NCBI GenBank assembly: GCA_964534625.1
Contig: CAZHRF010000012.1
Span: forward strand, 8,501-72,500
From: an uncultured archaeon
Lineage (GTDB): Archaea; Asgardarchaeota; Heimdallarchaeia; Heimdallarchaeales; Heimdallarchaeaceae
DNA: 64,000 bases
Reading direction: 5' to 3'
Shown here: piece after piece, positions 39,246-42,594 of the stretch
How positions within the stretch are numbered: the stretch's first letter is position 1
Layout: the number at the start of each line of letters is the position of its first letter
Translations under genes and position numbers: made by a program
The notes under the pieces: generated by a model
The model's input: the letters and a program-made list of their open reading frames with translations, nothing else
Database searches by the model: none
Told to the model about the DNA's origin: nothing

Positions 39246-41192
39246 TTAAACACCAAATGATTTATCAGCCATCTCTTCAAGCTTTAACCTTGTTTTAGCA
39301 TTAATCATTTGGCTCAACCTAATCGAAGTTAATAAATCATTCCAAAGACTTGAACTAGCTATATCGTTAGCAAAATCATCTAGTTTTTTACTAGCGCTAT
39401 ATGAAGAGCCTGTAAAAACATAACAAAATAGCAAAGGTTCAATGTTTTTAAAAAGCAGCAAATAATCTTGATGCTCAATTCTTTTTATCACTCCATCAGT
39501 TGAAAAAACCTCTCTTAAGATATTATTTATGGCTGATAAGAACCCTGTTATTAACAAATCATCTATCTTTTGTGAGCTTCTATTTTCAAATTGTAACGAA
39601 AATTTGGGAATGCCATTAATATCTAGAATTAATAGCATTACGGGATCATCTTTTTCAATGGTTTCTAACTCAAAAGTTGCCCTTGTGATCATGTTATACA
39701 CTAAATTATCAACTTGGGATGCGTCTATTCTTTCTTTTAGACTAGTATTCTCTTTTATCAACTCCTTCCAGTTTTTCAATTGTCGCAATAATTGATCATG
39801 TTCATCTGAAATCTTTTGTGCTAAATTTTCCAATTTTTGCTCCTCAGCAATTGATTGAGCATTATATAATAAGTCTCGTGCTCGACTTACGTTGCCTTTT
39901 ACTAACGATAATCTGGCTTTTAACCATAGTGTTTCAGCGAGTAAAGAACTAGATAATTGTCCTTCAGCTATTTTTTGTAATTTGTTTATTACTACACTCA
40001 ATTCATTTAAGATCATTTGGTCTTCGGTTATTCTTAATTCATAAAGAAGAATTTCAGAGAGGTTCAACATCGCATGAATATTTATTTCATTATACACGCT
40101 ATTCTCTTTGATTATGGTTTCCAATATTTCTTGCGCTTTACCTAATGTTTTAAGTCGTTTAGTAGCCTTTAGAATTATCGATTGAGAGAGTAAAGTATAA
40201 TAAAAAATCATAGTACCTTTTTTGCTTGCACTCACTTTTTCAGACAGTTCTAGATATTTTTTGGCTTCGTCAATTTCATCTCGAATTAGATGAATACTTA
40301 TTAGGTAATAAATGCTTTCTGCCATTATATATCTGAAATTAATTTGTTTAGCGTAATCTAAGCTTTTTTCGAAATAATCATAACTCAAGTTAAGACTGTT
40401 TTTGCTATAATGAACGATACCCACGTTATTGTATGTCACAGCTATTCCATATAAGTTTCCTAGTTGTTGATATATCATAAGGGCATCATTATAATGCTGG
40501 AGAGCTTTACCAAATAACCCTTGTAATCTATAAATCTCTCCTAAAGAAGATCCATATCTGGAAAGTACAAGAATGTTACCTGTTTTTTGGCCTAATTTAT
40601 AGCTTAGATTTAAGGTTTTTACAGCATTTTGTAAATCGCCTTTATACATCTCTATCCTTGCTTTCATAAACAATGCATAAGAAAGCAAATTCTCATCAGT
40701 ATCTTTTTCAAGTAAATTAAGACAAGAGTTAATGATAGTCGTAGCCTTTGTTAAATCTAAATAGGAATAGATTGAGCTTTTATTGAGTAATATTTTACTT
40801 TTTATTTTTGAGTAATCTGGTGCATTAATTGACAACTCTTCCATTTCTTTTTCTACATCAGCTAATAAAACTAAGCTCTCTTCTATCCGCCCTAGGTGCC
40901 ACAAATTTTCAATTAGGATATTTCTCAATTGTAGTTTTTGCGAAAGATGTAAAATATCCTTTCCAAGCACTAACGCACTGTTTGCAAAGTATATGCTTTT
41001 TTCAAAAAAACCCAAGTTAACGAGGATTTTAGATTTATAATAAAAACACTCAATTCTATCTTCTTTTGTTGAATTAGAACAATTGAGCAACTCATCTAGT
41101 ATAGACAAAGCTTCATTATATTTAAAATCTGCCATTAATTTTCTTATTTGCTTATTTTTCGTATTACGTATGAACAGTTTCCACCTCTTCAA
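39246..41192 (-). CDS. TPR repeat protein with C-terminal longin/roadblock-like domain
   Basis: MalT-like TPRs (GIAVTYNNVGIVH); C-terminal LLILDINGIP...LITGFLSAINNIL...LFCYVF. Confidence 0.75.
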   Translation of the reverse strand: MKRWKLFIRNTKNKQIRKLMADFKYNEALSILDELLNCSNSTKEDRIECFYYKSKILVNLGFFEKSIYFANSALVLGKDILHLSQKLQLRNILIENLWHLGRIEESLVLLADVEKEMEELSINAPDYSKIKSKILLNKSSIYSYLDLTKATTIINSCLNLLEKDTDENLLSYALFMKARIEMYKGDLQNAVKTLNLSYKLGQKTGNILVLSRYGSSLGEIYRLQGLFGKALQHYNDALMIYQQLGNLYGIAVTYNNVGIVHYSKNSLNLSYDYFEKSLDYAKQINFRYIMAESIYYLISIHLIRDEIDEAKKYLELSEKVSASKKGTMIFYYTLLSQSIILKATKRLKTLGKAQEILETIIKENSVYNEINIHAMLNLSEILLYELRITEDQMILNELSVVINKLQKIAEGQLSSSLLAETLWLKARLSLVKGNVSRARDLLYNAQSIAEEQKLENLAQKISDEHDQLLRQLKNWKELIKENTSLKERIDASQVDNLVYNMITRATFELETIEKDDPVMLLILDINGIPKFSLQFENRSSQKIDDLLITGFLSAINNILREVFSTDGVIKRIEHQDYLLLFKNIEPLLFCYVFTGSSYSASKKLDDFANDIASSSLWNDLLTSIRLSQMINAKTRLKLEEMADKSFGV

Positions 41193-41260
41193 CGAGATAA
41201 TATTATAAAATCAGTTACCCATATAAATGATTCTAAATTCTTGAATTGGTTTCACATTAA

Positions 41261-41613
41261 TCTTCTAAGAACCCTAAAACAGCACTTTCGCCCTATGGGT
41301 CATCTACGACCCATGTCGGGTGTGGAGGAAAGATTCAACGTTCTCAAGGACAGTACGATAGTGCCCCCTGTAAAAAATGCTCTAAACGGGTGAATACCCA
41401 CTATAATGCGGCCTTGTGGTTAGAAGCCCAATACCTTTGCCAGCACGCTTCCAACAAAAACCTCACCTCCCGTTCACCTTCCATCCTTCCATTACTAGGT
41501 CTCTCCCATCCTCCAACAACATAATGTTCACTTTCCCCTGTTCGCTCCCCAGGGGTCCGATTTGTGGAAAATACAACTTTTCACAAGTTCATAGGGATGC
41601 GCATGCACTTCAC
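41261..41613 (+). mobile_element. tnpB: Non-autonomous IS200/IS605- or IS607-type remnant: 3' end of tnpB (Zn ribbon plus RuvC-III) and structured right end
   Basis: Open frame 41261-41524 without ATG reads SPYGSSTTHVGCGG...PCKKCSKRVNTHYNAALWL; GC content visibly above the flanks; hairpins at 41535-41555 and 41562-41586. Confidence 0.65.
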
Positions 41614-41697
41614 TCTCGTAAAAAGAATACTTTACATTTGTTTTTTTCCGATTGATTTTTACTAAATTTGAGTATAATTTGTTGAATATGTTATGTT

Positions 41698-42594
41698 TCA
41701 ATCTTTTTGTAATTTTGCGTAATGTAACAAAGGTTCTCCTTTAAAGGTAAATTTTTCTGGAACTATGCTTATCACTCTTGAATCTTCCGGAATAAATAAC
41801 TCAATTTCATTATTCATCATACCAAATATATCACTCTTTTTTGCAAATTTTCCTGATGATGTTAAAGGTGAAAAAAACCCAGTACTTGGACTATTAATCT
41901 GTTCAATTTCGTGTACAAATTGTACTGATTTGTTACTTTTTCCTTGAATACTTTCTTTGCTAATTATTTGTAACTCTTTAAGTCCAAATAAAATCGTTTC
42001 TTGTACCTCTTTCACTACATATAACGGACAATAACCTGATGGACCACCCCCCTCTATCTCAATAATAAAACCGGGGATATTTTTATTAGAGCATTCAATA
42101 AACAATTGTCCTTTCGTGCCATGTGATTGTACACAAACATCTAAAGGAAAATTGTTCACAAAAGCTTTTGAATGTGAATGATTTTTATGTAAAGCGAGAC
42201 CATAAGTTGAACCATCACGACCGCAACAATGCAAATCTATAACATAATCAACATTTTTAGCTATATTCCATACTTCAAAAGCTATTCTTTCAGTAATAGT
42301 TCCGTCTTCCTTACCTGGGAAAACGCGGTTCATATCTTTCTTGTCAATAGACCCACGCTCTCTTGACATAAAAGCTAGTGGGTTTACTATTGGTATAACT
42401 TGCACAGAACCACTAATATTCATTTCTTCAAATAATCGAATAAGATTAAATGCAATATAGATAGATGTGGGTTCGTCACCATGTATTCCTGCAGTAATCA
42501 GGATTTTTGGGTTTCCTTCTCCAAAAGACCAAACTTTTGGCTTTACAGAGGTACTTTCTGTTAATATCCTTTTAAGCAGTTTAATATTCTTCAC
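41698..42594 (-). CDS. Succinylglutamate desuccinylase/aspartoacylase family (M14-like) protein
   Basis: AGIHGDE, DMNRVFPG, IDLH, IEIEGG. Confidence 0.88.
   Translation of the reverse strand: MKNIKLLKRILTESTSVKPKVWSFGEGNPKILITAGIHGDEPTSIYIAFNLIRLFEEMNISGSVQVIPIVNPLAFMSRERGSIDKKDMNRVFPGKEDGTITERIAFEVWNIAKNVDYVIDLHCCGRDGSTYGLALHKNHSHSKAFVNNFPLDVCVQSHGTKGQLFIECSNKNIPGFIIEIEGGGPSGYCPLYVVKEVQETILFGLKELQIISKESIQGKSNKSVQFVHEIEQINSPSTGFFSPLTSSGKFAKKSDIFGMMNNEIELFIPEDSRVISIVPEKFTFKGEPLLHYAKLQKD

What the first reader, a model, noticed from the sequence alone, without database searches (positions are those of the whole stretch)
41261..41640. Hidden TnpB 3'-end / omegaRNA mini-element in an intergenic region
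Seen: a frame absent from the ORF track (41261-41524, no ATG) encodes SPYGSSTTHVGCGGKIQRSQGQYDSAPCKKCSKRVNTHYNAALWL. This matches the TnpB C-terminus pattern PxxTSxxCxxCG...CxxC...DxNAA, but with His as the first Zn ligand and His at the RuvC-III Asp position. Hairpins follow (CCCCTG/CAGGGG at 41535-41555; a 9-bp stem with one G-U at 41562-41586), along with TTCA(T/C) motifs at 41588 and 41609. A 7-bp stem lies at 41295-41314. Established: TnpB omegaRNAs overlap the 3' end of tnpB and the right end, with the guide taken from flanking DNA. Inference: this is an internally deleted element retaining the omegaRNA scaffold, possibly an orphan guide-RNA cassette for a divergent Asgard TnpB with an atypical RuvC-III.
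Basis: partly seen in the sequence, partly recalled or inferred. Interest (0 to 1): 0.7.

Follow-up and report, generated by a model that had tools for sequence, protein, structure and literature searches.

The report
Truncated right end of Asgard transposon
This GC-rich intergenic stretch is the last 319 bases of a broken IS607-type jumping gene of Heimdall-group (Asgard) archaea: the tail of its TnpB-like nuclease gene plus the folded guide-RNA-type end. It is an ordinary leftover of a known kind of element, not a working mini-element.

Summary
In detail: the peptide, both hairpins and the TTCAT motif are at the stated coordinates.

**What it is.** Window 41283-41601 (+) matches 318 of 319 bases of the 3' end of a full-length element on a metagenome contig from a close relative (flanks about 95% identical). 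That element carries an IS607-type serine-recombinase tnpA, a 638-aa TnpB-like gene and this right end. The fragment therefore holds the last 80 codons of tnpB plus 77 non-coding bases, and it ends sharply at ...GGGATGCG (41601).

**The two His residues are family traits, not decay.** The first zinc ligand and the RuvC-III position are His in every aligned member of this Heimdallarchaeial family of about 640-aa proteins. No Asp was seen at RuvC-III in 65 scored representatives. A 2023 survey already catalogued an Asp-to-His RuvC-III change in another TnpB clade, and this scan met the family in other genomes.

**RNA evidence.** The terminal hairpins are conserved as structure across subfamilies, tolerate G-U pairs and fold on the + strand only. 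This fits an omega-RNA scaffold.

**What is not supported.** I found no left end, no tnpA, no promoter evidence and no cognate TnpB in this genome, and no RNA data exist. Three shorter right-end remnants and one left-side tnpA remnant also lie in the genome. The best reading is an immobile, 5'-truncated solo right end that is probably inert.

The parts
41283..41601 (+). 5'-truncated fragment (last 319 nt) of an IS607-family element
   Evidence: 318/319 identical to L119 (reverse strand) 2095-2413, the 3' end of a full-length tnpA-tnpB element. Homology stops at 41283 on the left and at 41601 on the right.
41283..41524 (+). Remnant of the tnpB-like ORF: last 80 codons and TAA stop. Zinc-ligand codons are H 41312-41314, C 41321-41323, C 41369-41371 and C 41378-41380. 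The RuvC-III position is H 41399-41401, followed by NAA at 41405-41413.
   Evidence: Translation. Matches the C-terminus of the 638-aa P0124 with one substitution, R for Q. H/C/C/C and H are invariant in family alignments. H aligns with the RuvC-III Asp of Cas12f/TnpB structures.
41535..41555 (+). Hairpin 1 of the right end (6 bp, 9-nt loop)
   Evidence: Predicted fold. 98% of cells are paired in 41 right ends. The closing pair is flipped from C-G to G-C in the 7 window-type sequences, and one outer pair is U-A.
41559..41589 (+). Hairpin 2 of the right end (9-12 bp with G-U pairs)
   Evidence: Predicted fold: z -1.9 on + against -0.4 on -. Relatives have a hairpin of different sequence at the same place. 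The relatives' helix is 96% paired with compensatory and G-U changes.
41588..41601 (+). Conserved single-stranded 3' tail, TTCAT...ATGCG, and the right-end boundary
   Evidence: TTCAT(N3-6)RTGYG is shared by all subfamilies. Ten copies diverge completely after this point.
41602..41625 (+). Flank at the position from which a TnpB guide would be read (CATGCACTTCACTCTC...)
   Evidence: Position relative to the right end by analogy with TnpB omega-RNAs (inference). There is no second match in the genome.
41637..41647 (+). T-rich run (TTTGTTTTTTT), a possible archaeal terminator for any + strand transcript
   Evidence: Read directly from the sequence. Function is inferred, not tested.

Best explanation
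Window 41283-41601 is a solo, 5'-truncated right end of an IS607-family insertion sequence of Heimdallarchaeia.

**The intact element.** It has a left end, a serine-recombinase tnpA (MerR HTH plus resolvase domain) and a TnpB-like gene of about 640 aa. That protein has a D-E-H RuvC centre and an H-C-C-C zinc finger. The right end folds on the sense strand into two or three hairpins followed by a conserved tail, TTCAT..RTGYG.

**How the intact element most likely works (by analogy with studied TnpB/IS607 systems).** The last roughly 150-300 nt would be transcribed or processed into an omega-RNA. Its guide would be the DNA just beyond the right end. TnpB would use it to cut the empty donor site and restore the element.

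**What survives in the window.** Only the last 80 codons of tnpB and the 77-nt non-coding end remain. Without a left end and tnpA the piece cannot move. Without a TnpB of this family in the genome, any RNA made from it has no partner. I therefore read it as a young, inert remnant. It is one of four right-end remnants, alongside one left-side tnpA remnant, of an element family that has died out in this genome.

**Shown and inferred.** Identity, boundaries, family traits and structure conservation are shown. The omega-RNA role and the inertness are inferred.
For: **Identity of the fragment**
- 318/319 identity to the 3' end of a full-length element on contig L119, which has a resolvase-domain tnpA, a 638-aa ORF and this right end.
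- L119's 3' flank is 94.5% identical to G000 contig C6, where the site is uninterrupted. L121's flank is 94.9% identical to C25, also empty.

**Boundaries and copies**
- The sharp right-end boundary is shared by 10 copies with different flanks.
- Exactly four right-end copies are in G000, with nested 5' truncations of about 319, 190, 70 and 56 nt.
- A stop-riddled tnpA remnant with its left end lies on C3.
- No left end is next to the fragment.

**No partner protein**
- No other match to the family protein exists in G000.
- Contigs of four source samples run unbranched across 41283 but break at the repeated 41546-41601 module.

**Family properties**
- Multi-copy in 38 of 47 genomes of the order (counting G000 itself, whose only match is this fragment), up to 17 matches per genome.
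- Some copies have MerR+resolvase tnpA upstream.
- D418, E513, H598, H569, C572 and C588 are invariant in alignments of 12 and 41 sequences; C591 is invariant in the 12-sequence alignment and near-invariant in the 41-sequence one.
- 63 His, 2 Gln and 0 Asp at RuvC-III among the 65 of 150 listed representatives in which the motif could be located.
- AlphaFold model with pLDDT 86 matches only Cas12f, TnpB, Cas12m and Fanzor folds.

**RNA structure**
- 96% of cells paired, 6 pairs with double changes, 0 of 500 shuffles as good, and G-U pairs tolerated.
- + strand fold z -1.9 against -0.4 on the minus strand.
- The terminal 75 nt or so are better conserved than the coding part among window-type variants.
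Against: - No transcript data: no RNA run holds the locus.
- The fragment differs from its parent by 1 in 319 bases while the host flanks differ by about 5%. This could reflect selection rather than youth, though different insertion sites make recent mobility the simpler reading.
- The assembly is 89.8% complete, so a cognate TnpB on an unassembled element or plasmid cannot be excluded outright.
- The left-end profile comes from a sister subfamily plus one G000 remnant, so a very divergent left end could be missed.
- The parent protein itself does not reach any Pfam TnpB threshold. Its assignment rests on homology to relatives that do, and on fold.
Confidence: 0.85

Rival explanations
1. Functional orphan guide-RNA cassette. 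The fragment is kept because it is transcribed into an omega-RNA that a TnpB of this family, supplied in trans by another element, plasmid or virus, uses as a guide.
For: - The complete terminal scaffold is intact and almost identical to the parent.
- Hairpins are conserved and strand-specific.
- TATA-like AT-rich boxes lie upstream and a T-run lies about 40 nt downstream of the right end (read by eye).
- Four right ends survive in G000, and the terminal module is 96-98% identical between two genera.
Against: - No cognate TnpB in the genome or, judging from unbranched contigs, in the source samples.
- The guide-equivalent flank matches nothing else in the genome.
- The other three copies are progressively shorter and more diverged (82-96%), as expected for decay.
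- No expression data.
Confidence: 0.1
2. Internally deleted, still mobilisable mini-element with both ends and no genes (MITE/PATE-like).
For: - Gene-less TnpB-scaffold elements of other families are reported as abundant in this same genome by earlier notes of this scan (unchecked).
- By eye there is a weak resemblance at 41166-41181 to the left-end start ACCGT..ACTG.
Against: - nhmmer with a 12-sequence left-end profile gives no hit in 41100-41300 even at E 100, while it recovers the C3 left end at E 3e-5.
- The sequence left of 41283 has no match to the parent.
- The four copies have different 5' break points and share no upstream sequence.
Confidence: 0.04
3. An independent cellular structured RNA (for example RNase P, SRP or another housekeeping RNA) that happens to look like a TnpB tail.
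For: GC-rich island in an AT-rich genome.
Against: - No Rfam family at gathering or E-value thresholds.
- Whole-region fold is not better than shuffles.
- Near-identity to a transposon end.
- The segment is absent from most related genomes.
Confidence: 0.01

Closest known systems
IS607-family elements with serine-recombinase TnpA, TnpB and a right-end omega-RNA (for example the C. botulinum IStron studied in bioRxiv 10.1101/2023.11.20.567912; ISFba1 TnpB, PDB 8iaz)
   Same: - MerR HTH plus resolvase TnpA upstream of tnpB.
- No inverted repeats.
- Junctions that share only a core di- or trinucleotide with the empty site.
- Conserved left and right ends.
- A structured 3' end abutting a variable flank.
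- The fold of the protein matches 8iaz and Cas12f.
   Different: - The protein is about 640 aa rather than about 400.
- RuvC-III is His, not Asp, and the first zinc ligand is His.
- The apparent target is AC(C/G)GT rather than TGGG.
- No match to Rfam RNA families such as RAGATH-18.
- The window holds only the last 319 nt.
TnpB clades with a rearranged RuvC-III (RIIIr-4; archaeal Ser-6 and RIIIr-6 branches) of Altae-Tran et al. 2023, PMC10691335
   Same: - A conserved Asp-to-His change at RuvC-III.
- Loss of the canonical C4 zinc finger.
- Association with serine recombinases in some branches.
- Predicted by those authors to stay catalytically active.
   Different: - I could not place this family in their tree.
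- Here the finger is H-C-C-C rather than absent.
- Their best-described His clade is tied to RHH/MazE genes in Euryarchaeota and Crenarchaeota, not to IS607 elements of Heimdallarchaeia.
Truncated or gene-less TnpB omega-RNA remnants (solo right ends; PATE-like derivatives of IS200/IS605)
   Same: The right-end scaffold is kept without the nuclease gene. Several such copies occur per genome, and earlier notes of this scan report other families of them in this genome.
   Different: This one has no left end, belongs to an IS607-type family with only four copies here, and still carries 240 nt of tnpB coding sequence.

Membership tests
TnpB/Cas12 superfamily (protein encoded by the parent element) | Split RuvC domain with the catalytic triad Asp-Glu-Asp | tested here: not met
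   Asp (GxDINR) and Glu (xLEDL) are invariant. The third position is invariantly His, and is His in 63 and Gln in 2 of 65 representatives. This is a conserved substitution, not loss, and it fits the literature's 'rearranged RuvC-III' category.
TnpB/Cas12 superfamily (protein encoded by the parent element) | Zinc-ribbon/TNB domain recognised by Pfam PF07282 | tested here: inconclusive
   The window peptide scores 16 bits, below the 26.3 cut-off. The parent P0124 has no hit. Relatives P0002 and P0003 pass at 28.1 and 29.5 bits, and P0124 is homologous to them (BLASTP 3e-63).
TnpB/Cas12 superfamily (protein encoded by the parent element) | TnpB/Cas12f-like fold | tested here: met
   The AlphaFold2 model has pLDDT 86 and pTM 0.78. 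All top Foldseek PDB matches are Cas12f, TnpB, Cas12m, Cas12g or Fanzor at probability 1.0.
TnpB omega-RNA / right-end RNA | Structured scaffold overlapping the tnpB 3' end and right end, ending at the transposon boundary with the guide read from the flank | tested here: inconclusive
   Sharp boundary and variable flanks. Conserved, + strand-specific hairpins with compensatory and G-U changes. Synonymous-site constraint in the last 25 codons or so of relatives. No transcript evidence, and no Rfam match.
TnpB omega-RNA / right-end RNA | RNA-guided DNA cleavage by the cognate protein | not testable with these tools
   Needs biochemistry.
IS607 family | Serine-recombinase TnpA (MerR-type HTH plus resolvase catalytic domain) upstream of tnpB | tested here: met
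   L119 partial TnpA: Resolvase at 50.4 bits. L059 TnpA: MerR at 45 bits plus Resolvase at 64.8 bits. This holds for the parent and relatives. The window itself has no tnpA.
IS607 family | No terminal inverted repeats or target duplication; ends and target share a short core | tested here: met
   Two empty sites in G000 (TATACCG|TCATTC and AGAACGG|TAAAAA) compared with occupied junctions (...ATGCG|T...). Left ends start AC(C/T)GT. Only two empty sites were available.
IS607 family | Mobility: several copies at unrelated sites | tested here: met
   Up to 17 matches per genome, in 38 of 47 genomes of the order (the count includes G000 itself). Ten window-type right ends have different flanks.
Mini-element with both ends (MITE/PATE-like) | A left end joined to the right end | tested here: not met
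   The left-end profile finds nothing at 41100-41300, and there is no homology left of 41283.

The most novel reading that the evidence does not exclude
Solo right ends such as this one might be retained as stand-alone guide-RNA genes. When a D-E-H TnpB arrives on an incoming element, plasmid or virus, it would load these resident RNAs. The resident RNAs would then either titrate the nuclease as a decoy or redirect it. This would amount to a host-side use of transposon guide RNAs in Asgard archaea.
Probability: 0.06. Interest if true: 0.6.

Novelty: new member of a known kind. Interest (0 to 1): 0.3.

Why it matters
The fragment itself is an ordinary transposon remnant and mainly matters for annotation. 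It explains a GC-rich, folded, ORF-less island without invoking a new RNA.

It also points to a rare subfamily of the Heimdallarchaeial IS607 elements. Only about five proteins of that subfamily turned up in the word-index search of 5.8 billion proteins. The large TnpB-like proteins of this family always carry His in place of the third catalytic Asp, and that variant has been catalogued by computation but never tested at the bench.

The parent contig L119 and the two empty sites in this genome give a ready-made set for such a test: protein, right-end scaffold, candidate target motif AC(C/G)GT and guide position.

Tried and rejected
- **Rfam.** The whole window at gathering thresholds and 41100-41750 at E up to 10 gave nothing relevant. 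ARAGORN found no tRNA or tmRNA.
- **Whole-region folds.** The 401-nt region folds no better than shuffles on either strand. Only the terminal 73 nt stand out.
- **RNA evidence.** No RNA holder is listed for the locus. Laying the four DNA runs gave contigs only, so it says nothing on expression.
- **Exact 20-mer scans.** Besides true copies, the scans of genome and metagenome collections returned chance hits in conserved bacterial and Methanoregulaceae genes. I discarded these after reading them.
- **Synteny of the downstream gene.** The gene is not conserved in close relatives, so no ancestral empty site could be found for this locus.
- **The 7-bp stem at 41295-41314.** It is not conserved in L116.
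- **A left-end-like string at 41166-41181 seen by eye.** The profile search does not support it.
- **Guide-equivalent flank.** It has no second target in the genome.
- **Not attempted.** I could not place the family in the published TnpB tree. I could not measure active-site distances in the model, because no coordinates are accessible.

Full report
**1. The observation**

The intergenic stretch 41193-41697 lies between two minus-strand ORFs. It holds an island of 45-49% GC in a genome of about 30% GC.

The two hairpins are at the stated coordinates: CCCCTG 41535-41540 with CAGGGG 41550-41555, and TTGTGGAAA 41562-41570 with TTTTCACAA 41578-41586. On its own the peptide matches the Pfam TnpB zinc-ribbon model PF07282 only weakly (E 0.014, 16 bits against a cut-off of 26.3). 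Rfam and ARAGORN find nothing.

**2. What it is**

A BLAST of the region against the window's own genome (G000, 120 contigs, 89.8% complete) finds three further partial copies. All end at the base equivalent to window 41601 and all have unrelated flanks beyond it:
- C34:29558-29685
- C16:171-226
- C9:7087-7156

. Profile searches confirm exactly four copies.

A scan of metagenome contigs with a 20-mer invariant in all copies found contig L119. On its reverse strand it carries three things:
- the 3' part of a resolvase-domain gene (Pfam Resolvase, 50.4 bits);
- a 638-aa ORF (P0124) ending ...LSPYGSSTTHVGCGGKIQRSQGQYDSAPCKKCSKQVNTHYNAALWLEAQYLCQ...PPTT;
- the same non-coding tail.

Window 41283-41601 is 318/319 identical to the last 319 nt of that element. 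Homology stops abruptly at both ends.

L119's downstream flank is 94.5% identical to G000:C6:45384-45658. There the site is uninterrupted, inside an ABC-transporter gene. A second metagenome copy (L121) sits next to the homologue of G000:C25:42099, which is also empty in G000. So the parent element lives in a close relative of this organism, at other sites.

Names attached to homologous proteins place the family in Candidatus Heimdallarchaeota / Heimdallarchaeaceae.

**3. The family**

Related genomes of the same taxonomic family hold many copies of a homologous gene. It is found in 38 of 47 genomes of the order (a count that includes G000 itself, whose only match is this fragment), with up to 17 matches per genome, and many copies are cut by contig ends. 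The complete ORFs are 637-686 codons.

Some copies have an intact or frameshifted upstream gene with a MerR HTH plus a resolvase domain. This is the IS607 TnpA architecture.

All copies end sharply at ...AAGTTTCATAACGTG(C/T)G. They begin at a shared left end, AC(C/T)GT..ACTG..AAAACTTA.

The two empty sites in G000 read TATACCG|TCATTC and AGAACGG|TAAAAA, against occupied junctions ...ATGCG|T.... This suggests insertion into AC(C/G)GT with a short shared core and no duplication, as described for IS607 elements (bioRxiv 10.1101/2023.11.20.567912). It rests on only two empty sites.

**4. The two histidines**

In alignments of 12 and 41 family members (25-34% identity to P0124), D418, E513, H598, H569, C572 and C588 are invariant; C591 is invariant in the 12-sequence alignment and near-invariant in the 41-sequence one. 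In phmmer alignments to solved Cas12f structures, H598 falls on the RuvC-III Asp and H569 on the first zinc Cys.

A profile search of 1.84 billion representatives finds 562 clusters. Among the 65 of the best 150 in which the motif could be located, RuvC-III is His in 63, Gln in 2 and Asp in none.

An AlphaFold2 model of P0124 (pLDDT 86, pTM 0.78) matches only Cas12f, TnpB, Cas12m, Cas12g and Fanzor structures.

It is not new as a category. Altae-Tran et al. 2023 (PMC10691335) describe conserved Asp-to-His RuvC-III rearrangements (clade RIIIr-4, which also lacks the C4 finger) and archaeal Ser-6 and RIIIr-6 branches, and they predict retained activity. Earlier notes of this scan describe the same D-E-H IS607 TnpB family in other Heimdall genomes. 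My results agree with them independently.

**5. The right end as RNA**

Across subfamilies whose proteins are only about 30% identical, the last 70-95 nt keep the same plan:
- a C-rich/G-rich hairpin;
- one or two further hairpins of unrelated sequence;
- an unpaired tail TTCAT(N3-6)RTGYG ending at the boundary.

On an alignment of 41 right ends, 96% of cells in the two tested helices are paired and six pairs show changes on both sides. No shuffle out of 500 does as well, and slid controls drop to 30-59% paired. G-U pairs are common, for example 14 G-U against 13 A-U at one pair, which argues for pairing in RNA of the tnpB-sense strand.

The window's terminal 73 nt fold with z -1.9 on the + strand and -0.4 on the minus strand. 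Relatives give z -1.8 to -2.4.

Among the three window-type variants, the terminal 75 nt or so are much better conserved than the coding part. In the relatives, synonymous codon identity rises in the last 25 codons or so.

All this fits an omega-RNA scaffold of roughly 150-300 nt, which the 319-nt fragment would contain. Short inverted motifs for the recombinase may overlap it. I could not separate the two roles.

**6. Why I call it a dead solo end**

- Left of 41283 there is no homology to the parent.
- A left-end profile that recovers the G000:C3 left end at E 3e-5 gives nothing near the fragment.
- G000 has no other match to either subfamily's protein.
- In the contigs of four DNA runs of the source study, the sequence runs unbranched from 40900 across 41283 to about 41582-41598, and breaks only in the 41546-41601 module shared with C34 and C16. 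A second copy of 41283-41545 in those samples would have branched the graph.
- The other right ends are shorter and more diverged (82-96%).
- C3 holds a stop-riddled tnpA with its left end.

Together these look like the debris of an element family that is extinct in this genome.

The fragment is young. It has 1 difference in 319 nt, against about 5% in the flanks shared with the relative (58 differences in 1123 nt), where about 16 would be expected. Because the insertion sites differ, recent mobility explains this more simply than selection does.

Nothing can be said about transcription, since no RNA holder is listed. AT-rich TATA-like boxes upstream and a T-run at 41637-41647 are compatible with read-through or spurious transcription, but that is inference.

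**7. Verdict**

It is wrong in architecture: this is not an internally deleted mini-element, and the element is IS607-type rather than IS200/IS605-type. 'Orphan guide-RNA cassette' remains unproven and unlikely.

This is a new member of a known kind, of modest interest. Its main value is as a pointer to an untested D-E-H TnpB subfamily for which protein, scaffold, candidate target motif and empty sites are now in hand.

Noticed in passing
Loci L043-L088 (relatives' tnpB-like genes), alignment columns about 231-330, roughly residues 250-350 of P0004: Synonymous-codon identity between copies rises from about 0.5 to 0.67-0.85 in the middle of the ORF. This is stronger than at the 3' end. It may reflect an embedded RNA, an internal promoter or gene conversion. 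It is unexplained.
   Followed up: no
Proteins P0149, P0153, P0157, P0161, P0168, P0171, P0177 and others: Representatives of 1000-1780 aa carry the D-E-H TnpB-like module in their C-terminal half. These may be real fusions or enlarged effectors, or merged gene calls.
   Followed up: no
G000:C3:107000-107512 (minus strand), outside the window: Left end (ACCGTGAACAACTGAGG...) plus a frameshifted, stop-containing IS607-type tnpA that is truncated after about 430 nt. It is the left-side counterpart of the right-end remnants.
   Followed up: partly
G000:C43:2935-2976 and C33:10260-10301: Marginal matches to the left-end profile (E 0.018 and 0.04). They may be further left-end remnants.
   Followed up: no
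G000, 11 places listed: Eleven PF07282 (TnpB zinc-ribbon) matches of other TnpB families. Most sit in short open frames (97-244 aa) and only one frame is 425 aa long. Earlier notes of the scan report many gene-less omega-RNA scaffolds of other families in this genome.
   Followed up: no
window 41135-41192: The 648-aa TPR ORF on the minus strand is listed from a TTG at 41192. An ATG (MADFKYNEAL...) lies 19 codons downstream (coding-strand sense), near 41135. The true intergenic region may therefore be about 57 nt longer than the ORF list suggests.
   Followed up: no
Right-end junctions of 10 window-type and 31 sister-subfamily copies: The first flank base after ...RTGYG is T in most copies (8 of 10, and nearly all of 31). 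Left ends start AC(C/T)GT, and the two empty sites read ACCGT and ACGGT, which are reverse complements of each other. Together these hint at a quasi-palindromic target AC(C/G)GT. The window's own junction has C instead of T.
   Followed up: partly
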